This document shows positions 30,213-52,573 of a stretch of 55,986 nt of DNA, one piece after another. This stretch comes from Prevotella sp. (GTDB lineage Bacteria; Bacteroidota; Bacteroidia; Bacteroidales; Bacteroidaceae): NCBI GenBank assembly GCA_017959365.1, contig JAGDAU010000109.1:1-55986 (forward strand), given 5' to 3'. The notes beneath the pieces were generated by a model. It saw only the letters and a program-made list of their open reading frames with translations, searched no databases and was not told the DNA's origin. Position numbers and translations under genes: made by a program. Each line of letters opens with the position of its first letter. The stretch's first letter is position 1.

Positions 30213-31091
30213 ATGGATATAGGCATTCTGTTTTCCGCGGCATTGCTTCCGGCTTTTCTGCTTTTACTGTATATATGCAAGAAAGACCCGCATCCGGAGC
30301 CAACAGGCAAGTTGGTTAAGGCTTTCCTGTTTGGTGTAATGATATGTATTCCTGTTTCTTTTGTCGAAACGGTAATAGAGTCTGTGTTGTTTGGGGGAGA
30401 GGAGCCGACAACACTGTTCGGCACTACAGTGATGGCATTTTTTGTGGCTGCTATACCAGAAGAGACAGCCAAACTGATTGCCTTATGGTTGGTATTGCGT
30501 AAAAATCCGTATTTTGACGAGCATTTTGACGGTATAGTATATGCTGTATGCGTAAGCCTTGGCTTTGCGGCTATAGAGAATGTATTCTATATTGTAGGTG
30601 AGGAGTCTTGGATGTCTGTAGCCTTTTCCCGTGCTTTATTGTCCGTTCCGGGCCATTATGCCTTCGGCGTGTTGATGGGATACTATTACTCTATGTACCA
30701 CTTTGTTAATCGTTCCAGCAATAATGCTGTTTGCATCCTGCTCATGCCTGTGTTGGCACATGGTATCTATGACGCGCTCGCTATGAGCGGTATGGCTGAT
30801 CCCATGGTTGGAGCAGTCTGTTTCATCGTTCTTATTATCTTCTGTATATTGATGCATAAGTTCGCTTTCAGGAAAATCCTTGCTCATATCAACAAAGATA
30901 AAAACAGAGGAAATACGCCTAATTCCGGTTATCCCGGCAATTCATATACAGGCATTTCTGGCAATCCACGTTATCCCGGCAATCCACAATATCCCAACAA
31001 TCCACAATATCCCAACAATCCACAATATCCCAATAATCCACAAAATCCTGGCAATCCACGTTATCCCGGTAATTCAGGTTATCCAAGTTAA
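30213..31091 (+). CDS. PrsW family intramembrane glutamic/metalloprotease with a repeat tail
   Basis: KDPHPEP, PEETAK, DGIVYA...GFAAIEN, PGH and HGIYD motifs. Confidence 0.9.
   Translation: MDIGILFSAALLPAFLLLLYICKKDPHPEPTGKLVKAFLFGVMICIPVSFVETVIESVLFGGEEPTTLFGTTVMAFFVAAIPEETAKLIALWLVLRKNPYFDEHFDGIVYAVCVSLGFAAIENVFYIVGEESWMSVAFSRALLSVPGHYAFGVLMGYYYSMYHFVNRSSNNAVCILLMPVLAHGIYDALAMSGMADPMVGAVCFIVLIIFCILMHKFAFRKILAHINKDKNRGNTPNSGYPGNSYTGISGNPRYPGNPQYPNNPQYPNNPQYPNNPQNPGNPRYPGNSGYPS
30960..31085 (+). repeat. 18-bp coding tandem repeat, 7 units encoding (G/N)NP(Q/R)YP
   Basis: Units such as ggcaatccacaatatccc and aacaatccacaatatccc read directly; one further related unit at 30918-30935. Confidence 0.92.
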
Positions 31092-40455: not shown

Positions 40456-41244
40456 ATGAAATTTGCTATCATTGCGGCTGGTGACGGGTCGCGTTTAGAG
40501 CAAGAGGGAATAAGAGTACCCAAACCGCTCATAGAGGTGGGCCATGAACGGCTCATCGACCGCTTGATAAGGCTATATACTGATATGGGTGCGAGTGAGA
40601 TAGATGTGATATGTAATGATAAGACCATTCATGTGGGTTCACATCTGGCAAGAATCCAGAATCAGGGTCTGCATGGTCGTCCTGTTCCATTACGTTTCAT
40701 GATAAAAAGTACTCCAAGTTCGATGCATAGCCTACATGAGCTGCATAGGTATTTAGGCGACGAGCCGTTTATACTGTCCACTGTTGACACAATTTTCGAT
40801 GAGGATGATTTATGTCGTTATGTGGATGCTTTCCGTAATAGTAACGGAGAGTGTCTGATGGGAGTGACAAGATATGTTGACGATGAGAAACCTTTGTATG
40901 TGTCTGTGGGGGAGGGTATGCGTATTAATGGCTTTCTTGACAAGTCTGACTGCTGTGAGTATGTAAGTGCGGGCATCTATGGATTGCAGCCTCAGGTGTG
41001 GCAGGTCTTGGATGAGTGTGTGCGTCGTGGTGAGAGTAGAATGAGAAATTTCCAGCGTGCGTTGCTTTCTTCAGATGGCGTTGGATCACGTCTGCGTGCT
41101 TTTGCTTTTGGAAAGGTCTTTGATGTTGACCATAAGGAGGATATTTATAAGGCAGAAGCCTTTCTCTTGGGTAAAGATGAAATGGTGGATGATGACAGAT
41201 ATCATTTTGCCAAGGATGAATTGATGGAGAGTGATGATGAATGA
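40456..41244 (+). CDS. Nucleotidyltransferase (NTP_transferase), putative inositol-phosphate cytidylyltransferase
   Basis: MKFAIIAAGDGSRL...PKPL signature and C-terminal DVD...D. The substrate is inferred from gene context. Confidence 0.8.
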   Translation: MKFAIIAAGDGSRLEQEGIRVPKPLIEVGHERLIDRLIRLYTDMGASEIDVICNDKTIHVGSHLARIQNQGLHGRPVPLRFMIKSTPSSMHSLHELHRYLGDEPFILSTVDTIFDEDDLCRYVDAFRNSNGECLMGVTRYVDDEKPLYVSVGEGMRINGFLDKSDCCEYVSAGIYGLQPQVWQVLDECVRRGESRMRNFQRALLSSDGVGSRLRAFAFGKVFDVDHKEDIYKAEAFLLGKDEMVDDDRYHFAKDELMESDDE

Positions 41245-42100
41245 ATATAAGGCTCTAATTATACGCCGCGCCCCCAAATTCTCTCCTAATTCAGTAGAAA
41301 AGGATTGCGCCATCATAGAGGCTGTTGCCGATATTTTATCTTCTTCGGGAATAAGCGTAAGGATGACAGACGAAGACCTGCTGACAAGTGACGATATGGT
41401 AAATATCGACATGGTGCTTACGATGTGTCGCAGCAGGCGAGCCTTAGACATTCTTACCCCTTTTGAGGACAAGGTCGCCATGATTAATGTTCCATCCTCT
41501 ATAATGGCGTGTAACCGCAAAGATATCCGTAAGGTGATGAGACGCAACAATTTACCTTATCCTACCCCAGGCAAGATATACGGCAACAGTGCGGTATGGA
41601 TCAAGAGGGCTGACGGGCACACAATGGTAGAACACGATGTGGTGTTCTGTGAGAGCGGGGCGGACAAGACGGCTGCTGTCAGATATTTTAAATCCATTGG
41701 ATCTGAGTATATCACTCAAGCCCATGTGGAGGGAGACCTTGTGAAATTCTATGGTGTAGGGTCGGATTTCTTCCGGACTTTTTATCCAGGAGATGATGGT
41801 GACGTGAAATACACCAAAGACTTGTGCCAAGACAAGCCGCGACATTATGCATATGGGTCAGAGTCTTTACGGGAGGCTGCTGAGACCATTGCCCGTGAAA
41901 TCGGTATAGATGTCTGGGGCGGTGATGCTATCATAACACCAGATGGTGATTATTACATAATAGATTTCAACGACTGGCCCAGTTTCTCCCGCTGCCGTGA
42001 TGACGCTGCCAAGGCTATTGCCCAAAGAATCATATTGAGGATTACAGGAATGTATCTGTTACGGAACAAGGAAATTAAGGAAAGGAGTAATGGAAGATAA
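41231..42100 (+). CDS. ATP-grasp fold protein of unknown function
   Basis: INVPSSI, VWIKR, YITQAHVEGDLVKFYGV and GGDAII...YIIDFNDWPSF. Confidence 0.7.
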   Translation: MMMNEYKALIIRRAPKFSPNSVEKDCAIIEAVADILSSSGISVRMTDEDLLTSDDMVNIDMVLTMCRSRRALDILTPFEDKVAMINVPSSIMACNRKDIRKVMRRNNLPYPTPGKIYGNSAVWIKRADGHTMVEHDVVFCESGADKTAAVRYFKSIGSEYITQAHVEGDLVKFYGVGSDFFRTFYPGDDGDVKYTKDLCQDKPRHYAYGSESLREAAETIAREIGIDVWGGDAIITPDGDYYIIDFNDWPSFSRCRDDAAKAIAQRIILRITGMYLLRNKEIKERSNGR

Positions 42101-43040
42101 CCGCACATTTAAGGAATTGCTACAAGCCTCTTTTAAGTCGGAGGATACAGAGGAGTGGCTTGACGTATGGTTTACCCGTCCCATAGGTCTTGCCTTTGCC
42201 TTGCTGTGGCGTAGGCTTGGTGTGCATCCAAACACAATAACCATATTGTCTATATTCCTTGGTATGGGCGCTGGTGCTATGTTTTATTTCTCTGATTTCT
42301 GGCATAACCTGGCAGGTATCATTCTGTTGATGTTTGCCAATTTCTGCGACTCTACCGATGGACAGTTAGCCCGCTTGACGGGTCAGAAGACCATGATAGG
42401 CCGTATGCTTGACGGTTTTGCGGGTGATGTGTGGTTCTTTTGCATCTATCTTGCTATTTTGCTTCGCTTGTGGCACCAGCCGATACCGTTTACAGATGAT
42501 ATAGAGTGGGGTATAGGTGCTTTTGTGCTGTGTGCCGTGGCAAGTTTGCTGTGTCACTCGCCTCAGAGCTCCCTCGCCGACTATTACCGTCAGATCCATT
42601 TGTTCTTCCTCTCCGGTAAGGATGGTAGTGAGTTTAGTACCTGGAAACAGAACAAGGATTATTATGATAGTCTGCCAAAAGAAGCACGTCTTGATCGTGC
42701 TTTCTATTATAATTATTGCAACTACTGTAAGAGTCAGGAACGTAGGACTCCGGCATTTCAGCGTTTTATGTCGTTATGGACTACGGAGGCTATTGATAAT
42801 GAACAGCGGGAGCAGATCCGTCAGGAATTTCTTTACGGCCGTCGGCCGCTGATGAAATACACCAATATCCTGACATTTAATACCCGTGCTATCTGTCTGT
42901 ATGTCAGTTGTCTCGCTGATGTTCCATGGCTTTATCCCGTGATAGAGATAACAGTTTTTTCAGTGTTGTACGTTTATATGAAATATAGCCATGAGAGTCT
43001 TTCTGCATTGATGGCAAAAAAAATACAAGAAAAAAAATAA
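42090..43040 (+). CDS. CDP-alcohol phosphotransferase family protein
   Basis: HPNTIT and the full DxxDGxxAR...GxxxDxxxD signature (DSTDGQLAR...GRMLDGFAGD). Confidence 0.92.
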   Translation: MEDNRTFKELLQASFKSEDTEEWLDVWFTRPIGLAFALLWRRLGVHPNTITILSIFLGMGAGAMFYFSDFWHNLAGIILLMFANFCDSTDGQLARLTGQKTMIGRMLDGFAGDVWFFCIYLAILLRLWHQPIPFTDDIEWGIGAFVLCAVASLLCHSPQSSLADYYRQIHLFFLSGKDGSEFSTWKQNKDYYDSLPKEARLDRAFYYNYCNYCKSQERRTPAFQRFMSLWTTEAIDNEQREQIRQEFLYGRRPLMKYTNILTFNTRAICLYVSCLADVPWLYPVIEITVFSVLYVYMKYSHESLSALMAKKIQEKK

Positions 43041-43072: not shown

Positions 43073-43792
43073 ATGTGGAATAAAATAAAGGCCATAATAT
43101 TCGATTACGGCGGTACCATTGACACCGGAGGCGTGCATTGGAGCGTCGTCTTTTGGCGTGCCTATCAAGAGCATAGTGTACCAATCACGGAGGAAGACTT
43201 CCGTGAGGCATACGTGTTTACAGAGCGTACGCTGGGCAAGAATCCTATTATCCAGCCAAACTATACGTTCCGCAAGACATTGGAAATAAAGGTGCGTATT
43301 CAGACTGAATACCTTGTTTCTCAGGGTGTATGGAACTGCACCGATTTTGAGCGTCTGAGCCGTGTTGCCCAGATTGTCGAGACAGCCTACTCAACGGTTG
43401 TTGCAACTATTGCACGCATCCGTCCTGCTGTAGAGTCACTCTCCAAGCAGTTGCCTTTGGCTTTGGTGAGTAATTTCTACGGTAATATGAGTGTTGTGCT
43501 TGAGGAGTTCGGTCTCAGTGATCTCTTTACCACAGTAGTGGAATCAGCTGTGGTGGGTGTGCGTAAGCCGGATGCGCGGATTTTCCTTATTGCCTCAGAG
43601 CGATTAGGCGTACGTCCGGATGAGATACTTGTGGTAGGCGACAGTTATGATAAGGATATCTGCCCTGCCCGTAAGGCTGGCATGCATACGGCATGGCTGA
43701 GAGTGGAAGGCTGGATAAAGGCAGAACCGGATAGTCCAGAGTGTGACGTGATTATTGATGAAATAGATAATTTATTGAAAACAAATACTTGA
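43073..43792 (+). CDS. HAD family hydrolase (phosphatase)
   Basis: FDYGGTID motif I, VSNF, RKPD and VGDSYDKD. Confidence 0.9.
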   Translation: MWNKIKAIIFDYGGTIDTGGVHWSVVFWRAYQEHSVPITEEDFREAYVFTERTLGKNPIIQPNYTFRKTLEIKVRIQTEYLVSQGVWNCTDFERLSRVAQIVETAYSTVVATIARIRPAVESLSKQLPLALVSNFYGNMSVVLEEFGLSDLFTTVVESAVVGVRKPDARIFLIASERLGVRPDEILVVGDSYDKDICPARKAGMHTAWLRVEGWIKAEPDSPECDVIIDEIDNLLKTNT

Positions 43793-43826
43793 AGTGTAAT
43801 ATTAATTGAAAAATACACGTAAAATC

Positions 43827-45134
43827 ATGATAAATGAAAATGTAAAACCGGCAAACGGTAAATTAGGCATATTGGTGGTTGGTTGCGGAGCTGTAGCCAC
43901 CACATTCTTCACTGGCGTGATGATGGCGCGCAGAGGATTGGCAAAACCAGTCGGTTCCCTGACTCAGTATGATAAAATACGTATTGGAAAAGGGGACAAT
44001 AAGAAATATTCAGGTTATTATGACATAGTTCCCTTAGCAGAGCTTAAGGATTTAGAGTTTGGCACTTGGGATGTCTATCCTCAGGATGCCTTCCGTGCGG
44101 CTATGTATGCCAAGGTGCTGGAGGAAAAAGATATTTTACCAGTGAGAGAAGAGTTGGAGCGTATCGTTCCGATGCCCGCTGCCTTTGACAAGAATTATGC
44201 CAAGCGTATAGACGGCGACAATGTGATGGTTGGCAAGACGCGTTGGGAAATGGTGGAACAGTTGCGTGACGACATCCGTCGTTTCAAGCATGAGCATGGC
44301 TGTGACCGTATCGTTGTTGTCTGGGCTGCCTCAACAGAAATTTATCTTCCAATAGACAAGGATGTCCATTACTCCCTGTCAGCTCTCGAGGCAGCTATGA
44401 AAGCTGATGATCGTGAGCACATAGCACCATCCATGTGTTATGCATACGCGGCTCTTTCAGAAGGAGCCCCATTTGTCATGGGTGCGCCTAACACCACTGT
44501 TGACATACCGGCTATATGGGAGTTGGCAGAGAAAACCCGTATGCCAATAGCCGGCAAAGACTTTAAGAGTGGCCAGACCCTTGTCAAATCCGGTTTCGCA
44601 CCTATCATCGGCACTCGTTGCATGGGATTGTCTGGATGGTTCTCCACAAATATCCTCGGCAACAGAGACGGCATGGTATTGGATGAGCCGGATAATTTCC
44701 GTACCAAGGAGGTGAGCAAGCTTTCTACATTGGAGACAATACTTAAGTCCACAGACCAACCAGACCTCTATAAGGACTATTATCATAAGGTAAGGATTAA
44801 CTACTATCCTCCCCGTAATGACAATAAGGAGAGTTGGGATAATATTGACATTTTCGGCTGGATGGGTTATCCTATGCAGATAAAGATTAATTTCCTTTGT
44901 CGTGACTCTATACTTGCAGCGCCCTTACTTCTTGACCTTGCACTGCTCATTGACCTTGCCATGCGTGCCGGACGTTATGGAATACAACGTTTTCTGAGTT
45001 TCTATCTTAAGAGTCCGATGCATGACTATACTCAGGGTGAGGAGGCGGTCAACAATCTTTATCAACAATATACAATGTTAAAAAATGCCCTTCGTGAGAT
45101 GGGTGGATATGATGCAGATGAGGAAATCGATTAA
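43827..45134 (+). CDS. ino1: myo-Inositol-1-phosphate synthase (MIPS)
   Basis: GCGAVATT, WAASTE, GKDFKSGQT, STNILGNRDG, DNKESWD, CRDSILAAPL and FYLKSP. Confidence 0.95.
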   Translation: MINENVKPANGKLGILVVGCGAVATTFFTGVMMARRGLAKPVGSLTQYDKIRIGKGDNKKYSGYYDIVPLAELKDLEFGTWDVYPQDAFRAAMYAKVLEEKDILPVREELERIVPMPAAFDKNYAKRIDGDNVMVGKTRWEMVEQLRDDIRRFKHEHGCDRIVVVWAASTEIYLPIDKDVHYSLSALEAAMKADDREHIAPSMCYAYAALSEGAPFVMGAPNTTVDIPAIWELAEKTRMPIAGKDFKSGQTLVKSGFAPIIGTRCMGLSGWFSTNILGNRDGMVLDEPDNFRTKEVSKLSTLETILKSTDQPDLYKDYYHKVRINYYPPRNDNKESWDNIDIFGWMGYPMQIKINFLCRDSILAAPLLLDLALLIDLAMRAGRYGIQRFLSFYLKSPMHDYTQGEEAVNNLYQQYTMLKNALREMGGYDADEEID

Positions 45135-47721
45135 ATATCTGCTTACTTTGCTGTTGTGTGTGCTTACCCAAACAGTGTTAGCGCAGATTAACGGCAAGGT
45201 GGTGGATTCAGTTACCGGTGAGACAATACCATTCCCGTCATTGTTATATAAAGGACATGGTGTTGCGGTGGCAGGTGATGTTGACGGCAATTTTAAGATT
45301 GAGCGTCATAATGGTTGGTATCTCACTATTAAGTCTGTGGGATATCAAGACAGGCGTATACTCATTAACGAGAAGACATCGCGCAACATCACTGTGAAAC
45401 TCATACCAGATACACGTGCCCTTGACGAGGTTGTGGTAAAGGCAAAGCGCCGCACCCGTTATACTCGTAAGAACAACCCCGCCGTTGAGTTGATGCAGCG
45501 CGTTATAGCCGCCAAGAAGAAGACGGATTTGGAGAATTATCCTTTTTATCAGTTTAACAAGTATCAGAAGATAACTTTAGCCGTTAATGATATCAAGCCG
45601 GAGGATATGGAAAAAGGCTTGTTTAAGAATGCCCCTTGGCTTGTTAATCAGGTGGAGCAATGCGAGTTTACTCAGAAACTCATATTGCCTTTGTCTGTTG
45701 ATGAGACAGTTACCCAGCACTTATACCGTAAAGATCCCCGTACAGAAAAGGATGTTATTATGGGTCAGCAGTCAACAGGTGTCAATAAAGTGATACAGAC
45801 TGGTGAGACCGTAAACACCATGCTCAAGGAGATATTTACAGACATAGACATCTATGATGACCATGTGAAATTATTGCAGTATCATTTCCCAAGCCCTATA
45901 GGACGTACAGCGATATCATTCTACCGCTATTATATTCAGGATACAGTGTTTGTGGGTAATGACAAGTGTTACCATTTGCAGTTCCTGCCCAACAACCAGC
46001 AGGACTTCGGTTTCCGTGGTGAGTTGTACATCCTGTGTGACTCATCGCTGCATGTAAAGCGTTGTGATATGACAGTACCCCGCAGGAGTGGTGTTAACTT
46101 CGTTGATAATATCCGTATGCAGCAGGAGTACACTCGCCTTGACAATGGTGAGTGGGTGCTTACCGTTGACAATATGGTAGCGGAGATGCAAATAGCCAAT
46201 ATCTTCACCAAAGCCATTGTGATACGAAACACCAGATTGTCGGATTATGACTTCTCAGAGATATCTGACAAGAAATTCAGGGGTAAGGCAAAGAAGCGTA
46301 CCGAGGCAGATGCTCAAATACGCGATCAGGCATTCTGGGACCGTTATCGTACCATCGGCCTGACAAAGAGTGAGGAGAATATGGGTTCGTTTATCAAGAG
46401 CATGGAACAGTCGAAGAATTTCAAATGGATGCTGATTGCCGCTAAGGTGCTCATAGAGAATTTTGTGGAGACCCATCCGGATAAAGACAAGAGTAAGTTT
46501 GATATTGGACCCGTTAACACCTTTATATCTTATAATTTTGTGGACAAGTGGCGTTTCCGTCTGAGTGGCAGAACTACAGCCCGCCTTAATCCTCATCTCT
46601 TTTGGGATGGTTATTATGCCTACGGTACAAAGTCGAGGAAGCATTATTATGGTACCAACTTCACTTATTCGTTTAACAAGAAGAAAAACCAGCCGTTTGA
46701 ATACCCTCAGCGCACACTGTCTTTTGAGTCGTCATTTGATGTGATGTCGCCGTCAGATAAGTTTATTATCCATAATAAGGATAATGCTTTCATGGCATTT
46801 AAGACACAGAAGGTGGAGCAGATGTATTTCTACAACCGCCAGAAACTGGATTTTGTCTATGAGACGGATTGGGGATTCCGTTTACATTCCGACATAAAGC
46901 TGGAGAGTAATGATGCCACAGGTGATTTGGAGTTCCGCCACATGCCAGGCTATAAAGCCGCTGACCCATCAGACCCGGGTTATTCAGCTGACATGCCTGT
47001 AGGAGCCCTGGCTGGCAAGATACGCACCTCTGAGATTACGCTGGGAATGAAATACAGCCCCGGACAGACCTTTATCAACACCAAACAGCAGCGCATACCC
47101 ACCAACTACGATTCTCCGGAGTTTTCGTTGAGTCATACCATCGGTTTTGATGGATTGATGGGCGGACAATATAAGTACAACTTTACAGAGGCTGAAATAT
47201 ATAAGCGATTCTGGTTAGGCAGTTGGGGATATATCAACAGCCGTGTCAAGGCAGGCGCTCAATGGAATAAGGTGCCATTCCCATTGCTTATCATGCCACC
47301 TGTCAACCTGTCGTATTGGGAGCACGAGGAGACATTCTCACTGATGAACAATATGGAGTTCCTCAACGACCGTTATGTGTTCTGGAGTGCAGCATGGGAT
47401 ATGAATGGAAAACTTCTTAACCGTATTCCTCTTTTAAAGAAACTGAAGTGGAGGGAGTATTTTGCCGTTAAGGGCATGATAGGTAAGCTGACAGACAAAA
47501 ACAATCCATACCTGCCGGAGAATTACAATGATCCCATATTATTCCAATTTCCTGATAATGTGAATATTATGGATGCAGGAAAGCCTTATTGGGAGATTGT
47601 GGTCGGTGTGCATAATATCTTCAAGTTGTTTGAGGTTGACTATGTCCACCGTCTGAGTTACAACAACCTCTCGACAGCTTCCCGTAATGGTATCCGCTTT
47701 GGATTTAAAGTGTCATTCTGA
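45118..47721 (+). CDS. Outer-membrane protein with an N-terminal carboxypeptidase-regulatory-like domain and a DUF5686-type barrel
   Basis: Signal peptide, INGKVVDSVTGETIPF...SVGY...LDEVVV, NPAVELM, EFLNDRY and a terminal Phe. The start overlaps the MIPS 3' end. Confidence 0.8.
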   Translation: MRKSIKYLLTLLLCVLTQTVLAQINGKVVDSVTGETIPFPSLLYKGHGVAVAGDVDGNFKIERHNGWYLTIKSVGYQDRRILINEKTSRNITVKLIPDTRALDEVVVKAKRRTRYTRKNNPAVELMQRVIAAKKKTDLENYPFYQFNKYQKITLAVNDIKPEDMEKGLFKNAPWLVNQVEQCEFTQKLILPLSVDETVTQHLYRKDPRTEKDVIMGQQSTGVNKVIQTGETVNTMLKEIFTDIDIYDDHVKLLQYHFPSPIGRTAISFYRYYIQDTVFVGNDKCYHLQFLPNNQQDFGFRGELYILCDSSLHVKRCDMTVPRRSGVNFVDNIRMQQEYTRLDNGEWVLTVDNMVAEMQIANIFTKAIVIRNTRLSDYDFSEISDKKFRGKAKKRTEADAQIRDQAFWDRYRTIGLTKSEENMGSFIKSMEQSKNFKWMLIAAKVLIENFVETHPDKDKSKFDIGPVNTFISYNFVDKWRFRLSGRTTARLNPHLFWDGYYAYGTKSRKHYYGTNFTYSFNKKKNQPFEYPQRTLSFESSFDVMSPSDKFIIHNKDNAFMAFKTQKVEQMYFYNRQKLDFVYETDWGFRLHSDIKLESNDATGDLEFRHMPGYKAADPSDPGYSADMPVGALAGKIRTSEITLGMKYSPGQTFINTKQQRIPTNYDSPEFSLSHTIGFDGLMGGQYKYNFTEAEIYKRFWLGSWGYINSRVKAGAQWNKVPFPLLIMPPVNLSYWEHEETFSLMNNMEFLNDRYVFWSAAWDMNGKLLNRIPLLKKLKWREYFAVKGMIGKLTDKNNPYLPENYNDPILFQFPDNVNIMDAGKPYWEIVVGVHNIFKLFEVDYVHRLSYNNLSTASRNGIRFGFKVSF

Positions 47722-48170: not shown

Positions 48171-48325
48171 AATTAATGTGTTCTTAAAAGAAAAGAAAAA
48201 TACAATGATTTGACAAAGTTACTATTTTAAATCATTAAATTGACGTTTCATTCAAAAAAAAGTAACACAAAATTATGTTTTTTTAATTATTATGGTTAAT
48301 TTTGCGCATCATTTTAGGTATTAAC

Positions 48326-49990
48326 ATGGGAAAAGAACGTTTGCTTCCTGACATTATATTTGAGTCAAGCTGGGAAGTATGTAACAAAGTCGGTGGTATT
48401 TACACCGTATTATCAACACGTGCAAAGACATTACAGGATGCAATGAGAGACCGTATATTCTTCATTGGTCCGGATTGTTGGCACGAAAAACCAAGTCCAT
48501 TCTTCATTGTTGATGACAGCCTGATGGCTGAATGGAGAGAGCAGGCTGCCACGGATGGTCTGCACTTCAAGGTGGGCCGCTGGGATATCCCCGGCAATCC
48601 TATTGCCATATTAGTGGAATTTGAGCAGTATTATGAGCATAAGAATGAAATTTATGCCTCTCTGTGGGAGCATTATCAGGTTGACAGCCTTCATGCCTAC
48701 GGAGATTATGATGAGGCGTCAATGTTCTCGTATGCCGCAGCACTCGTAGTGGAGAGTTATTATAACTATTACCTTTGTGAAGAAGATAAAGTGATTTATC
48801 ATGGCAATGAGTGGATGACGGGTCTTGGACTTCTGTATATCAACCACCGTCTGCCTCAGATTGCCACACTCTTTACAACTCATGCAACGAGCATCGGCCG
48901 AAGCATATCGGGTAACAACAAACCACTGTATGATTACTTATTCGCTTACAATGGCGACCAGATGGCTGAAGAGCTGAATATGCAGAGCAAGCATTCCATA
49001 GAAAAGCAGACAGCTCACAATGTTGACTGTTTCACTACTGTAAGCGATATTACCGCCAATGAGTGTAAAGAGTTGCTTGACCGTCCTGTTGACTGTGTAC
49101 TGCCAAATGGTTTTGAGAATAACTTTGTTCCCAAAGGTGCCCAGTTCACTCAGAAGCGTCGTGCCGCCCGTCGTCGTCTCTTGGATGTGGCTAATGCCCT
49201 GATGGGTACCGATCTGGGTGATGATACGCTAATAGTGTCAACCAGTGGTAGATATGAGTTCCGAAATAAAGGCGTTGACGTATATATTGAGGCAATGAAC
49301 CGTCTGTTGCGAGACAAGGAGTTGTCAAAGACTGTTTTGGCATTTATAGAAGTGCCGGGATGGGTTGGCGACCCTCGTTCCGACCTTGTCAGCCGTCTTA
49401 ACAGTGGTAAGAAATACGACACTCCGTTAGAGGTTCCTATGCTAACCCATTGGCTTCATAATATGACCCATGATAATGTGTTGGGAATGCTTAAATACCT
49501 AAACATGAAAAATCTCCCGGAGGATAAGGTGAAACTGATTTTCCTTCCGTGCTACCTTACGGGTGATGATGGAGTGATAAACATGACCTATTATGATTTG
49601 ATCTTGGGAAATGATATGTGTATCTATCCGTCTTATTATGAGCCTTGGGGCTATACACCACTTGAGGCTATAGCATTTAAGGTGCCTTGCGTCACAACCG
49701 ATCTTGCCGGTTTTGGCCTTTGGGTAAATAAGGCTCTTGGGCATAATGGTGAGATAGAGGATGGAGTAAAGGTTATTCATCGCACAGACTATAATTATTC
49801 AGAGGTTGCTGACGGCATCAAGGAAATCGTTTCAGAATTTTCCAATATGAGCGATGAGGATATCAAGAAATGCCGTAAGAATGCTGACGCTCTCTCAAAG
49901 AAAGCCCTTTGGAGCAAGTTTATAGAATATTATTACGATGCATACGACATTGCGTTGCGTAATGCCATTAAGAGAAACGAAAACAAATAA
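48326..49990 (+). CDS. Glycogen synthase, GT3 family
   Basis: FESSWEVCNKVGGIYTV, FTTHAT, SGRYEFRNKG and PSYYEPWGYTPLE; ATG at 48326. Confidence 0.92.
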   Translation: MGKERLLPDIIFESSWEVCNKVGGIYTVLSTRAKTLQDAMRDRIFFIGPDCWHEKPSPFFIVDDSLMAEWREQAATDGLHFKVGRWDIPGNPIAILVEFEQYYEHKNEIYASLWEHYQVDSLHAYGDYDEASMFSYAAALVVESYYNYYLCEEDKVIYHGNEWMTGLGLLYINHRLPQIATLFTTHATSIGRSISGNNKPLYDYLFAYNGDQMAEELNMQSKHSIEKQTAHNVDCFTTVSDITANECKELLDRPVDCVLPNGFENNFVPKGAQFTQKRRAARRRLLDVANALMGTDLGDDTLIVSTSGRYEFRNKGVDVYIEAMNRLLRDKELSKTVLAFIEVPGWVGDPRSDLVSRLNSGKKYDTPLEVPMLTHWLHNMTHDNVLGMLKYLNMKNLPEDKVKLIFLPCYLTGDDGVINMTYYDLILGNDMCIYPSYYEPWGYTPLEAIAFKVPCVTTDLAGFGLWVNKALGHNGEIEDGVKVIHRTDYNYSEVADGIKEIVSEFSNMSDEDIKKCRKNADALSKKALWSKFIEYYYDAYDIALRNAIKRNENK

Positions 49991-50014
49991 TACAAATAAC
50001 ATATTATATTTATT

Positions 50015-52573
50015 ATGAAAATAAAAGCAGATTACTCTAATTCACCATCATGGAAAGAGGTGATTGTTAAGTCGCGTCTGCCAGAACAGCTGGCATGCTT
50101 AGATGAGCTGGCTCATAACATGTGGTGGGCATGGAACTATGATGCCCGTAACATGTGGAAGAGCTTGGATGAAGACCTTTACGAGAAAGTAGGCCACAAT
50201 CCCGTTGCTCTGCTCGAGCGCTTGAGTTATGAGCGCAAGGAGGCCATTGTCAAGGATAAGGCTGTGATGAAGAAAGTTAAGGATGTGTATGCCCGTTTCA
50301 AGGAATACATGAATGTGAAGCCAGACAAGAGCCGTCCGTCAGTAGCATATTTCTGTATGGAGTATGGTATCAACCAGTCTCTTAAGATTTACTCTGGTGG
50401 CCTTGGCATGCTTGCCGGTGACTATGTTAAGGAGGCTTCGGACTCTAATGTGGATATGTGCGCCATCGGCTTCCTCTACAGAATGGGTTATTTCCGTCAG
50501 AGTCTCAGCATGGATGGTCAGCAGATTGCCAATTATGATGCCCAGAACTTCAACAGCCTGCCTATCGTGCGTCAGTTAGATAAGGATGGCAACCCAATGG
50601 TTGTTGATGTGCCGTATATGAACTATCAGGTTCATGCTTATGTATGGTGTGTTAATGTGGGTCGTGTGAAACTTTATCTGCTTGACACCGACAATGAGAT
50701 GAACTCTGAGTTTGATAAGCCAATCACACACGCTCTCTATGGCGGTGACTGGGAAAACAGACTAAAGCAGGAGATTTTGCTTGGTATCGGTGGTATGCTG
50801 ACACTTAAGAAGCTTGGAATCAAGAAGGATATATCTCACTGCAATGAAGGTCATGCCGCACTCTGCAACCTGCAGCGCCTGTGTGACTATGTTCAGGAGG
50901 GAATGACTTTCAATCAGGCTCTCGAGCTTGTAAGGGCATCTGGTCTTTACACATGTCACACACCTGTTCCCGCTGGTCATGACTATTTTGATGCTGACCT
51001 CTTTGGCAAGTATATGGGTGGTTACCCTCAGATGCTTGGCATTACATGGGATGAGTTTATAGGTATGGGACGTGTCAACCCAGATGACCACGGTGAGAAA
51101 TTCAGCATGAGCACATTCGCCATCAATACTTGTCAGGAGGTTAATGGTGTTAGTAAACTGCACGGCTGGGTTAGTCAGAAGATGTTTGCTCCTATCTGGA
51201 AGGGCTATTATCCAGAGGAGAACGCCGTCGGTTATGTAACTAATGGTGTACACTTCCCGACATGGACAGCTACAGAGTGGCGTAAGTTGTATGATAAATA
51301 CTTCGATAAGAACTTTATGAGTGACCAGAGCAATGAGGATATATGGCACGCTATTTATGATGTGCCCGATGCAGAGATTTGGTCAACCCGTATGGCATTG
51401 AAGGAGAAGCTTATAAAGTATATCCGTGAGAAGTTTACAGAGATGTGGCTTAAGAACCAGGGCGACCCGTCAAGGGTAGTGTCACTTCTTGAGCGTATCA
51501 ATCCCAATGCACTGATGATAGGCTTCTGCCGCAGGTTTGCCACTTACAAACGTGCCCACCTGCTCTTTACTGATCTTGACCGTCTGTCAAAGATTGTAAA
51601 TAACCCGGAGCGTCCGGTATTGTTCTTCTTCTCTGGTAAGGCACATCCTGCTGATGGTGCTGGTCAGGGTCTTATAAAGAAGATCTTTGAGATCAGTCAG
51701 CGTCCAGAGTTCCTCGGTAAGATTATCTTCCTTGAGGACTACGATATGCAGCTTGCCCGTCGTCTTGTGAGTGGTGTGGATATCTGGATGAACACACCGA
51801 CCCGTCCTCTTGAGGCTTCCGGTACATCAGGCGAGAAGGCAGAGATGAATGGTGTTGTCAACCTCTCTGTGCTTGATGGCTGGTGGGTTGAGGGTTATCG
51901 CAAGGGTGCCGGTTGGGCTCTTCCCCAGAAACGCACATATCAGAACCAAGGCTACCAAGACCAGCTTGACGCTGCTACAATCTACTCACTCCTTGAGAAT
52001 GAGATTATCCCTCTCTATTATAATAAAGATAAGAAGAAGGGCTACAGCGCCGGTTGGATTAAAGTGGTTAAGAACTCTATCGCCACGATTGCTCCACACT
52101 ATACAATGAAGCGTCAGTTGGATGACTATTACAACAAGTTCTATATTAAGGAGGCTAAACGCTTTAAGGAACTTTCAGCCAATAACAACCAGCTCGCAAA
52201 AGAAATAGCTTCTTGGAAGGAGACCGTTGCCGAGCGTTGGGATGCTATTAAGGTGGTTGACAAGGACGATACCGCTTTCAGCGTTTCAGAGACAGGACTT
52301 GAGTTCGCTCTGAGATATACCATTGATGAGCAGGGTCTTAACGACGCTATTGGTCTTGAGCTTGTTACTATTAATAATGAGCCAGAGGAGGAAATCTCTA
52401 TCCATACAGTAAGACCATTTAAGCTGATAAAGCAAGAAGGCAATCTCTACACATTTGAGTGTAAGTTCATTCCTGATCATGCCGGTCCGTATAAGTGTTG
52501 CGTGAGAATGTTCCCAAAGAATGATAAACTGCCTCACCGTCAGGACTTCGCATACGTTAAGTGGCTTGACTAA
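50015..52573 (+). CDS. glgP: Alpha-glucan (glycogen) phosphorylase
   Basis: [31 protein letters not shown] and the [12 protein letters not shown] site. Confidence 0.96.

What the first reader, a model, noticed from the sequence alone, without database searches (positions are those of the whole stretch)
41231..42100. ATP-grasp enzyme in the inositol operon resembles an ITPK1-type inositol phosphate kinase
Seen: the gene overlaps both neighbours (14 and 11 nt), suggesting translational coupling, and carries TQAHVEGDLVKFYGVG and GGDAII...YYIIDFNDWPSF. Established: ITPK1 inositol-trisphosphate 5/6-kinases are ATP-grasp proteins with, as I recall the consensus, Q.F..H....KV(Y/F)V.G and ID(I)N.FPG(Y/F) motifs, whereas RimK-type ligases usually have E-x-N at that site. 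Inositol polyphosphate synthesis is regarded as largely eukaryotic. Inference: this could be a bacterial inositol-phosphate kinase feeding a phosphorylated headgroup, with the HAD enzyme as counter-phosphatase, giving phosphoinositide-like lipids or soluble inositol polyphosphates. The alternative is an amino-acid ligase that decorates the headgroup. This is the top candidate for an undescribed system in the window.
Basis: partly seen in the sequence, partly recalled or inferred. Interest (0 to 1): 0.85.

Follow-up and report, generated by a model that had tools for sequence, protein, structure and literature searches.

The report
Orphan inositol-phosphate kinase of Bacteroidota
This gene is a constant, unstudied member of a gene set proposed to build inositol membrane lipids in many gut and oral Bacteroidota, and it likely adds a phosphate to inositol 3-phosphate so that the head group would be attached the same way round as in host lipids, rather than making eukaryote-style inositol polyphosphate signals.

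Summary
The ORF, motifs and overlaps are real (likelier start 41234/41237). It is an ATP-grasp enzyme (two AlphaFold models) inside the untested 'alternative' inositol-lipid cluster of Heaver 2022, whose text never mentions it. It is core: 48 of 50 Bacteroidales genomes with it have MIPS, all 46 loci fetched carry the nucleotidyltransferase, and it fuses to three partners. It fails ITPK membership (no Pfam hit; backbone closer to RimK/LysX, Z 22 vs 20), yet has a kinase-like site: Lys instead of the ligase Arg (232 of 232) and DxN-D-W-P-S-F. Genomes without MIPS, including Tannerella forsythia, keep this gene and the HAD and mostly carry a separate TM0415-like inositol kinase (18 of 21, against 24 of 59). 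The cassette therefore likely starts from an inositol monophosphate. Best model (0.42): Ins3P 1-kinase giving Ins(1,3)P2, then CDP activation, transfer to lipid, and 3-phosphate removal by the HAD, the CDP-inositol counterpart of the PIP route. Kinase of any kind about 0.7; ligase 0.15; polyphosphate signalling 0.07. No biochemistry exists. The scan noted this gene family before on other DNA.

The parts
41231..42100 (+). ATP-grasp enzyme (the finding); start GTG 41231 or, more likely, ATG 41234/41237; predicted inositol-monophosphate kinase
40456..41244 (+). Nucleotidyltransferase (PF00483/PF12804); putative CTP:inositol-phosphate cytidylyltransferase; most frequent fusion partner of the ATP-grasp domain
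42090..43040 (+). CDP-alcohol phosphotransferase (PF01066); far from the BT_1523 PIP-synthase model (17 bits, cut-off 350)
43073..43792 (+). HAD-superfamily hydrolase (motif I D-Y-G-G-T); predicted 3-phosphatase of the pathway (Heaver 2022 proposed a PI-DHC synthase instead)
43806..45134 (+). myo-inositol-phosphate synthase (PF07994 + PF01658); first ATG at 43827
45085..47721 (+). CarboxypepD_reg + DUF5686 outer-membrane-type protein (probably BT_1527-like); frequent but not constant neighbour
41714..41761 (+). Hinge and first C-domain strand, with G168-D169-L170-V171-K172-F-Y; K172 sits where amide ligases have Arg and AtITPK4 has Lys
41918..41986 (+). Metal-binding D232 and D245-x-N247-D-W-P-S-F motif (D-x-N rather than E-x-N)

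Best explanation
The protein is likely an ATP-dependent inositol-monophosphate kinase that would phosphorylate the 1-OH of D-myo-inositol 3-phosphate to give Ins(1,3)P2 as the first step of a CDP-inositol lipid pathway. Proposed route: Ins3P comes from MIPS, or in MIPS-less species from imported inositol through a separate PfkB/TM0415-like kinase. The ATP-grasp enzyme adds the 1-phosphate. The nucleotidyltransferase turns that phosphate into a CDP-inositol. The CDP-alcohol phosphotransferase moves it onto dihydroceramide or diacylglycerol. The HAD removes the original 3-phosphate, before or after transfer (order unknown). The net result would be a D-1-linked head group, as in the mycobacterial and B. 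thetaiotaomicron PIP route, whereas direct cytidylylation of the MIPS product would give the mirror-image D-3 link. Shown: fold, motifs, gene linkage, fusions, the distribution of MIPS, PfkB and HAD. Inferred: kinase activity, substrate, position, order, stereochemistry.
For: (1) Core member: 48 of 50 carrier genomes have MIPS, against 13 of 301 non-carriers. The nucleotidyltransferase is in 46 of 46 loci and was not found in 13 of 13 MIPS-positive non-carriers (that call had no positive control), 11 of which have the BT-type PIPS + PgpA beside MIPS. Of the 17 long proteins among the 150 listed representatives, 10 are fused to the nucleotidyltransferase, 4 to a HAD and 2 to the CDP-alcohol transferase. 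(2) Kinase-like site: K172 in 232 of 232 and never an acidic residue at 170 among the listed residue types. It aligns to the Arg of the ligase PsnB and to K-F-Y of AtITPK4 in a low-scoring stretch. Burroughs 2015 (PMC4431377, passages) names that Arg as the mark of the amide-ligase clade. D-x-N in 231 of 232, whereas 10 of 11 other ATP-grasp proteins taken from Bacteroidota genomes show E-x-N. The C-terminal strand and loop match ITPKs in every profile search (E 4e-4 to 4e-3), and AtITPK4 has the highest identity (22%) of 50 structural matches. (3) ITPK1 uses I(3)P1, and Lokiarchaeal ITPK genes flank MIPS genes (Desfougeres 2019, PMC6900528, sections 6 and 9). (4) MIPS-less carriers keep an intact ATP-grasp gene (20 of 21; one MAG copy split) and a HAD (21 of 21; 20 match all four motifs). 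18 of 21 have a TM0415-like kinase, against 24 of 59 MIPS-positive carriers (Fisher p 4e-4, kin not independent). In the 351-genome sample both MIPS-less carriers have it, and all 11 genomes with it have an inositol-lipid cluster. (5) T. forsythia has the four-gene cassette, no MIPS and no BT-type PIPS, and makes unmodified inositol-phospho-dihydroceramides from medium inositol (Megson 2015, PMC4587543, passages). (6) The other route ends the same way: the 1-OH of Ins3P is linked and the 3-phosphate is removed (PMC6506517 passages; PMC9246714).
Against: No enzyme assay exists. The backbone is closer to RimK/LysX than to ITPK1 (a tie), and the best full-length profile match is the ligase PsnB (1.3e-6). 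D-x-N is also found in CDC123 (PMC4431377), so it is not diagnostic. Of the three best-conserved ITPK inositol-phosphate contacts only the K199 equivalent is kept: the position 13 residues after K172, basic in AtITPK4, is Tyr (220 of 232), and no conserved H167 equivalent was found by spacing from recall. A less basic pocket fits free inositol as well. The position phosphorylated by the PfkB kinase is untested (S89Q as in a homologue whose product is not Ins1P, PMC5931981). HAD retention proves little if the HAD is a transferase, as Heaver proposed. Three of 21 MIPS-less MAGs lack the PfkB gene. Operons with a dehydrogenase and an aminotransferase suit a free-cyclitol substrate better. The D/L configuration of the lipids of cassette-bearing species was not determined in the passages read.
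Confidence: 0.42

Rival explanations
1. Free myo-inositol (or inosamine) 1-kinase in a strict Kennedy order: MIPS, HAD to free inositol, ATP-grasp kinase to Ins1P, cytidylyltransferase, phosphotransferase. It would double as the salvage kinase.
For: Same kinase-like site. Only two or three conserved basic residues beyond the ATP site (R13, R67, K172, R256). Kept in MIPS-less T. forsythia, where Megson 2015 found no kinase candidate. In 14 of 14 loci with a Gfo/Idh dehydrogenase and a class III aminotransferase one copy has Q instead of R67, and both two-copy loci have one R and one Q copy, as expected if the pocket reads the cyclitol ring.
Against: MIPS-less carriers are enriched for a separate TM0415-like inositol kinase (18 of 21 vs 24 of 59), which this model does not need, and they keep the HAD (21 of 21), which would have no Ins3P to act on. 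Three Q copies lack a close aminotransferase orthologue, and the R/Q pattern needs only about 3 changes on the tree.
Confidence: 0.25
2. RimK-like carboxylate-amine or ester ligase that decorates the head group or makes another precursor.
For: Top structural matches are LysX, RimK, ArgX and D-Ala ligases. Best profile match PsnB. Weak NCBIfam RimK/MptN hits for some members (E 5e-8 to 2e-5, far below cut-off). JGI labels relatives 'glutathione synthase/RimK-type ligase-like'. An amine acceptor exists in the aminotransferase operons.
Against: The ligase-clade Arg is Lys in 232 of 232 and E-x-N is D-x-N. Most operons have no amine-forming gene (aminotransferase in 14 of 229 loci). T. forsythia incorporated labelled inositol into two unmodified inositol-phospho-dihydroceramides only (Megson 2015), and P. 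vulgatus makes PI-DHC (Heaver 2022).
Confidence: 0.15
3. Processive ITPK-type kinase making soluble inositol polyphosphates or polyphosphoinositide signals, with the HAD as counter-phosphatase.
For: ITPK-like motifs; ITPK1 takes InsP1 to InsP5 in vitro (PMC6900528); kinase-HAD fusions (4 of 17); the neutral extractions used in the lipid studies would miss PIPs (PMC9246714).
Against: The pocket lacks the second phosphate-binding basic residue (Y185). No PF05770 match. The gene tracks the nucleotidyltransferase, not MIPS alone: it is absent from 13 MIPS-positive genomes of the sample, 11 of which use the BT route.
Confidence: 0.07
4. ADP/ATP-coupled phosphotransferase acting as a net Ins3P-to-Ins1P mutase, or another non-ligase use of ATP; the HAD has a separate role such as PI-DHC synthase.
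For: ITPK1 can also remove the 1-phosphate (PMC6900528, discussion passage). Heaver 2022 assigns the HAD to transfer, and its motif I lacks the second Asp.
Against: No direct support; it needs catalytic rather than stoichiometric nucleotide use.
Confidence: 0.08

Closest known systems
Putative 'alternative' inositol-lipid cluster of Phocaeicola (Bacteroides) vulgatus and Prevotella (Heaver et al. 2022, PMC9246714; BVU_RS13095, 13105, 13115)
   Same: Nucleotidyltransferase, CDP-alcohol phosphotransferase, HAD and MIPS in one cluster; the P. vulgatus ATCC 8482 locus (L131) has the ATP-grasp gene between the first two, as here.
   Different: The paper's main text has no 'ATP-grasp' and its 8 readable supplements gave no hit (figures not seen). 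It proposes direct CDP-inositol formation with no phosphorylated intermediate and the HAD as PI-DHC synthase; the model here adds a kinase step and makes the HAD a 3-phosphatase.
ITPK family (PF05770; human ITPK1 2qb5/2q7d, EhITPK 1z2n, AtITPK4 7pup, StITPK1 8oxe; Lokiarchaeal LcIKA-D)
   Same: ATP-grasp fold (Z 16-20), D-x-N followed by aromatic-P-[GS]-[YF], Lys on the first C-domain strand, genes beside MIPS, predicted use of Ins3P.
   Different: No Pfam match at cut-off, 14-22% identity, backbone nearer RimK/LysX, Tyr in place of the second basic contact, and a setting in lipid head-group activation rather than InsP6 synthesis.
RimK/LysX/ArgX and PsnB amide or ester ligases (PF08443)
   Same: Best backbone match (Z 21.6-22.3 with the better model), size and three-domain layout.
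   Different: Ligase Arg replaced by Lys, E-x-N by D-x-N, the glycine-rich loop by W-x-K-R-G-D; no constant amine or carboxylate partner gene.
PIP route of mycobacteria and B. thetaiotaomicron (PIPS BT_1523 + PgpA-like BT_1525 + AUR1-like BT_1522)
   Same: Starts from Ins3P, links through the 1-OH, removes the 3-phosphate; mostly occupies the same place beside MIPS in genomes that lack this cassette (11 of 13).
   Different: Activates the lipid (CDP-DAG), so it needs no kinase; different enzymes.
IPCT/DIPPS and IPCT/BEPIS CDP-inositol routes (Thermococcales, Rhodothermus marinus)
   Same: CDP-activated inositol passed to a CDP-alcohol phosphotransferase.
   Different: They cytidylylate L-Ins1P (= D-Ins3P) directly. 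The window's enzymes score only 37 and 23 bits on the IPCT/DIPPS model (cut-off 580). Rhodothermus is known to me only from Megson's summary and was not searched for the ATP-grasp gene.

Membership tests
ATP-grasp superfamily | Three-domain ATP-grasp fold | tested here: met
   VIA Z up to 19.7 (rmsd 3.5, 248 aligned) and 22.3 (rmsd 2.8, 252 aligned); the listed rows are ATP-grasp-fold proteins
ATP-grasp superfamily | Two basic ATP-binding residues, a strand-4 Asp and an [ED]-x-N motif (PMC4431377) | tested here: met
   R96 231 of 232, K125 232, D232 232, D245 231, N247 232
ITPK (PF05770) | Match to PF05770 at the curated cut-off (23 bits) | tested here: not met
   Window protein 11.6 bits, E 0.2; best member E 0.01-0.03; no match in 5 of 5 genomes
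ITPK (PF05770) | ITPKs are the closest structural neighbours | tested here: not met
   Tie (RimK 19.7, ITPK1 18.8, ArgX 18.7); with the better model LysX 22.3, RimK 22.2, ITPK1 19.8; Foldseek top rows are ligases
ITPK (PF05770) | D-x-N-x-aromatic-P-[GS]-[YF] C-terminal motif | tested here: met
   D-F-N-D-W-P-S-F aligns to D-L-N-Y-L-P-S-F (AtITPK4), D-I-N-A-F-P-G-Y (human) and D-V-N-V-F-P-S-Y (Entamoeba)
ITPK (PF05770) | Conserved inositol-phosphate contacts H167, K199, R212 (PMC6900528) | tested here: inconclusive
   K199 equivalent present (K172; low-scoring alignment to AtITPK4); position +13 is Tyr in 220 of 232; the H167 register rests on recalled spacing and is mostly Glu; no coordinates were available for superposition
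ITPK (PF05770) | ATP-dependent phosphorylation of inositol phosphates | not testable with these tools
   needs an assay
RimK/LysX/GshB amide-ligase clade | [quoted passage not shown] | tested here: not met
   Lys in 232 of 232; register from the PsnB alignment; an hhalign run against three RimK-like proteins was gapped at this site and neither confirms nor contradicts it
RimK/LysX/GshB amide-ligase clade | E-x-N motif | tested here: not met
   D-x-N in 231 of 232; control proteins E-x-N in 10 of 11. CDC123 also has D-x-N
RimK/LysX/GshB amide-ligase clade | Match to PF08443 or TIGR00768 at cut-off | tested here: not met
   TIGR00768 12.5 bits for the window protein and at most 30 for relatives, cut-off 143; PF08443 best E 0.003; one member 20.4 bits against 21
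Heaver 2022 alternative inositol-lipid cluster | Nucleotidyltransferase, CDP-alcohol phosphotransferase and HAD near MIPS | tested here: met
   (same order in P. vulgatus ATCC 8482, L131)
Heaver 2022 alternative inositol-lipid cluster | No BT-type PIPS/PgpA/AUR1 cluster in the genome | tested here: inconclusive
   None found in the own genome, which is 77% complete
Heaver 2022 alternative inositol-lipid cluster | Produces PI-DHC or PI-DAG | not testable with these tools
   Reported for P. vulgatus, P. veroralis and T. forsythia in the papers; the link to the cluster is untested there too

The most novel reading that the evidence does not exclude
A phylum-wide family of bacterial ATP-grasp inositol-phosphate kinases, a sister group or convergent twin of ITPK1, makes Ins(1,3)P2 in common gut and oral bacteria and defines a third route to host-type D-1 inositol (sphingo)lipids through CDP-inositol-3-phosphate and PI3P-like intermediates. 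A single R-to-Q change retunes it for amino-inositol lipids in Ignavibacteria-like lineages, and a PfkB kinase, not this enzyme, is the missing salvage kinase of Tannerella and Parabacteroides.
Probability: 0.35. Interest if true: 0.82.

Novelty: new variant of a known kind. Interest (0 to 1): 0.62.

Why it matters
Inositol-phosphate kinases of the ATP-grasp fold are described from eukaryotes and Asgard archaea (PMC6900528, PMC8024741). A bacterial one, in 50 of 351 sampled Bacteroidales genomes including P. vulgatus, P. distasonis and T. forsythia, would extend that chemistry to Bacteria. It would complete and revise the untested second route to inositol sphingolipids, which affect gut fitness and antimicrobial-peptide resistance in B. 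thetaiotaomicron. It also turns two open questions into simple assays: how the alternative cluster works, and how T. forsythia activates scavenged inositol (a candidate PfkB kinase is named here).

Tried and rejected
Pfam and NCBIfam gave no family for the protein. The ESM Atlas returned only unnamed Bacteroidota clusters and one with 16% RimK; a follow-up limited to named clusters did not complete. I first took the gene for the salvage kinase of T. forsythia and lowered that reading after finding the TM0415-like PfkB gene in 4 of 4 MIPS-less genomes. G469 and G608 looked MIPS-less by protein search but have a divergent MIPS, so they count as MIPS-positive. G243 and G135 were weak partial matches to other ATP-grasp proteins and were dropped. 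No ITPK sequence could be fetched for a profile-profile comparison or tree (motif scan of viral contigs: 0 hits), so common ancestry with ITPKs is untested. The profile search from divergent members returned 96 proteins, all family members by score and none with a Pfam label. A regex count of the R/Q site was unreliable and was replaced by an alignment column. The careful tree did not finish; the quick tree is quoted. Promoter and terminator scans showed nothing usable. No complex prediction or read mapping was run. Literature searches listed no paper that, by title or abstract opening, characterises this gene; subscription journals are not covered, and Jorge 2015 and Iyer 2009 were not read.
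Full report
Observation. The ORF is at 41231-42100 (+) and holds the three quoted motifs at residues 162, 230 and 241 (residues are numbered from GTG 41231). The downstream overlap is 11 nt. The upstream overlap is 14 nt from the GTG, or 11 or 8 nt from the two ATGs that follow; the database form starts at 41237. The neighbours are a nucleotidyltransferase, a CDP-alcohol phosphotransferase, a HAD hydrolase, MIPS and a DUF5686 protein. The gene has no Pfam hit at E 0.1 and one NCBIfam hit at E 0.07. GC content matches the window (0.46 against 0.44).

The cluster is known, the gene is not. Heaver et al. 2022 (PMC9246714; passages, section 10, and a term search of 8 supplement files) proposed an untested 'alternative' inositol-lipid cluster of nucleotidyltransferase, phosphotransferase and HAD beside MIPS, and found PI-DHC in B. 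vulgatus and P. veroralis, which lack the B. thetaiotaomicron genes. 'ATP-grasp' does not occur in the text or readable supplements; figures were not seen. The P. vulgatus ATCC 8482 locus has this gene between the nucleotidyltransferase and the phosphotransferase (L131). Nine literature searches listed no characterisation.

It is a core gene. The family is large (1979 relatives; 892 representatives at 50% identity), and the named relatives are Bacteroidota, including Ignavibacteria-like lineages, apart from two odd MAG labels. In one sample of 351 Bacteroidales genomes, 50 carry it, 61 carry MIPS and 48 carry both. All 46 loci newly fetched from that sample hold the nucleotidyltransferase. Over 160 loci of at least 12 kb from all sources, which overlap in part, 151 hold the nucleotidyltransferase, 153 the phosphotransferase, 153 the HAD and 102 MIPS. 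In the 13 MIPS-positive genomes without the gene, the nucleotidyltransferase was not found in any (no positive control in the call), and 11 have the BT-type PIP synthase and PgpA-like phosphatase beside MIPS. All 17 proteins of 490 aa or more among the 150 listed representatives were scanned: 10 are fused to the nucleotidyltransferase, 4 to a HAD, 2 to the phosphotransferase and 1 to a histidine kinase. Some may be read-through artefacts, but nucleotidyltransferase fusions also occur in genome loci (L073, L074, L081, L082, L100, L113, L135).

Fold and family. Both models are confident (pLDDT 89.8, window protein; 95.7, T. forsythia protein). With the first, RimK (Z 19.7), ITPK1 (18.8) and ArgX (18.7) tie. 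With the second, LysX (22.3) and RimK (22.2) lead ITPK1 (19.8) and AtITPK4 (18.7), although AtITPK4 has the highest identity of the 50 rows (22%; RimK and LysX 14-15%). Foldseek ranks D-Ala ligases first. Profile searches of the PDB put the ligase PsnB first over a long stretch (E 1e-6 to 4e-4), the ITPKs next, mainly over the C-terminal motif (E 4e-4 to 4e-3), and RimK-like, LysX and GshB entries at E 0.1 or worse. PF05770 finds nothing in 5 of 5 genomes. The protein is therefore not an ITPK by membership; it is a separate bacterial clade.

Active site. In 232 aligned copies (window plus 231 from loci) the ATP and metal residues are kept (R96, K125, D232, D245, N247). Burroughs et al. [quoted passage not shown] Here that position is Lys (K172, 232 of 232), aligned to the Arg of PsnB and, in a low-scoring stretch, to K-F-Y of AtITPK4; the residue two before it is L, V, T or I. 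The motif is D-x-N-D-W-P-S-F, close to the ITPK motifs printed, while 10 of 11 other ATP-grasp proteins from Bacteroidota genomes show E-x-N. Against this: CDC123 also has D-x-N, an hhalign run against RimK-like proteins was gapped at K172, and of the ITPK contacts H167, K199 and R212 (Desfougeres 2019, PMC6900528, sections 6 and 9 and passages) only the Lys is matched. The position 13 residues on is Tyr in 220 of 232, and the H167 register rests on recalled spacing. Other conserved basic residues are R13, R67, R126 and R256. This suits a substrate with one phosphate or none better than a polyphosphate (inference; no coordinates were available).

A natural experiment on the substrate. T. forsythia ATCC 43037 has the four-gene cassette, no MIPS and no BT-type PIP synthase (L087). 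Megson et al. 2015 (PMC4587543, passages) showed that it builds inositol-phospho-dihydroceramides from medium inositol only, that no other lipid was labelled (neutral extraction), and that no inositol kinase candidate was evident. That first suggested that this gene is the salvage kinase. However, the P. vulgatus cluster contains a PfkB gene whose best PDB match is the inositol kinase TM0415 (E 9e-33). It keeps D11, N78, L116, Q141 and R145, has S89Q as in a homologue whose product is not Ins1P, and has an ATP-type G-C-G-D (Nagata 2018, PMC5931981, section 9 and passages). Orthologues at 58-71% identity are in all 4 MIPS-less genomes first tested. Among the 80 named carrier genomes, MIPS was not found in 21 (43 have it in the locus; 16 of 33 elsewhere; 4 negative). 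The PfkB gene is in 18 of those 21 and in 24 of the other 59 (Fisher p 4e-4; relatives are not independent and many are MAGs of unknown completeness). In the 351 sample it is in 11 genomes: 10 carriers, including both MIPS-less ones, and one BT-type genome. All 21 MIPS-less loci keep the HAD, 20 with all four motifs matched, and 20 keep an intact ATP-grasp gene. The simplest reading is that the cassette takes an inositol monophosphate, from MIPS or from the PfkB kinase, and needs both the ATP-grasp enzyme and the HAD after that point.

Mechanism (inferred). MIPS makes D-Ins3P (= L-Ins1P; established nomenclature). Cytidylylating it directly, as IPCT does, would give a D-3-linked lipid and needs neither kinase nor phosphatase. 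The mycobacterial route links the 1-OH of D-Ins3P and then removes the 3-phosphate (PMC6506517, passages), and B. thetaiotaomicron uses the same PIP intermediate (PMC9246714). A CDP-inositol route can reach that product only by putting a phosphate on O-1 and taking it off O-3, which are the two functions left unassigned in this cassette. ITPK1 accepts I(3)P1 and is named a 1-kinase (PMC6900528). I give 0.42 to Ins3P to Ins(1,3)P2, 0.25 to a free-inositol kinase, 0.15 to a ligase, 0.08 to a mutase-like transfer and 0.07 to polyphosphate synthesis. Whether the HAD acts on Ins(1,3)P2, CDP-Ins3P or the lipid is open, and if it is a transferase, as Heaver proposed, its retention does not separate the first two models.

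A variant. Fourteen loci from non-Bacteroidia lineages add a class III aminotransferase and a Gfo/Idh dehydrogenase. All 14 have a copy with Q at position 67, both two-copy loci have one R and one Q copy, and 211 of 215 locus copies without the module have R. Three Q copies have no close aminotransferase orthologue in their genome (33-35% against 77%), and the quick tree of 64 of the 232 rows needs about 3 changes. This suggests, but does not show, that the pocket reads the cyclitol ring.

Verdict. The feature is real. It is an overlooked core enzyme of a published but untested pathway, likely a kinase, not an ITPK family member, and probably not a maker of polyphosphate signals. Earlier notes of this scan, read after most of this analysis, reached the same core-gene conclusion on other genomes; they are not counted as support.

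Noticed in passing
L131:10795-11691 (-) P. vulgatus; L168 T. forsythia; L167 P. distasonis; L210: TM0415-like PfkB kinase with an ATP-type donor site, beside an MFS sugar transporter inside the P. vulgatus cluster; a candidate for the inositol salvage kinase that Megson 2015 could not find in T. forsythia. The MFS gene has a 56% homologue in T. forsythia.
   Followed up: partly
L027, L030-L039, L201-L203: Class III aminotransferase plus Gfo/Idh dehydrogenase, mostly with MlaE/F/D ABC genes, inside the cassette in non-Bacteroidia lineages; suggests an amino-inositol lipid.
   Followed up: partly
L061, L064, L068, L111, L112, L161: BT-type PgpA/GtrA/PIPS/AUR1 genes inserted within the ATP-grasp cassette, so both routes coexist in some Muribaculaceae-like and Dysgonomonas genomes.
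   Followed up: no
L207 (T. forsythia), L208, L209: Stand-alone paralogue of the cassette's CDP-alcohol phosphotransferase, in two cases next to the PdxA-like gene that often precedes the cassette; function unknown.
   Followed up: no
L195:7200-8354, L196:7121-8272: Two small-genome carriers have a short, divergent MIPS (about 384 aa) away from the cassette, and a fused nucleotidyltransferase-ATP-grasp protein.
   Followed up: partly
L062, L063, L065, L067, L069, L070, L072: A TetR-family regulator lies between the nucleotidyltransferase and ATP-grasp genes; L062, L069, L070 and L072 have a second CDP-alcohol transferase upstream, in L062 with a second nucleotidyltransferase and a class I/II aminotransferase.
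   Followed up: no
window 41231-42100: The window's copy sits on a long branch (1.34) and lacks about 15 residues of the central domain, as Prevotella-like copies do, but keeps all 15 key residues checked.
   Followed up: partly
L120:6001-6854; P0122: One MAG copy is split into two ORFs; one representative is joined to a PAS-histidine kinase, possibly a read-through artefact.
   Followed up: no
window 30213-31091: Membrane protein resembling PrsW-type proteases (from recall; not searched) with a C-terminal run of short Asn-Pro-Gln-Tyr-Pro repeats.
   Followed up: no
window 48302-52573: Glycogen-synthase-like and glucan-phosphorylase-like gene pair (from the translations; not searched).
   Followed up: no
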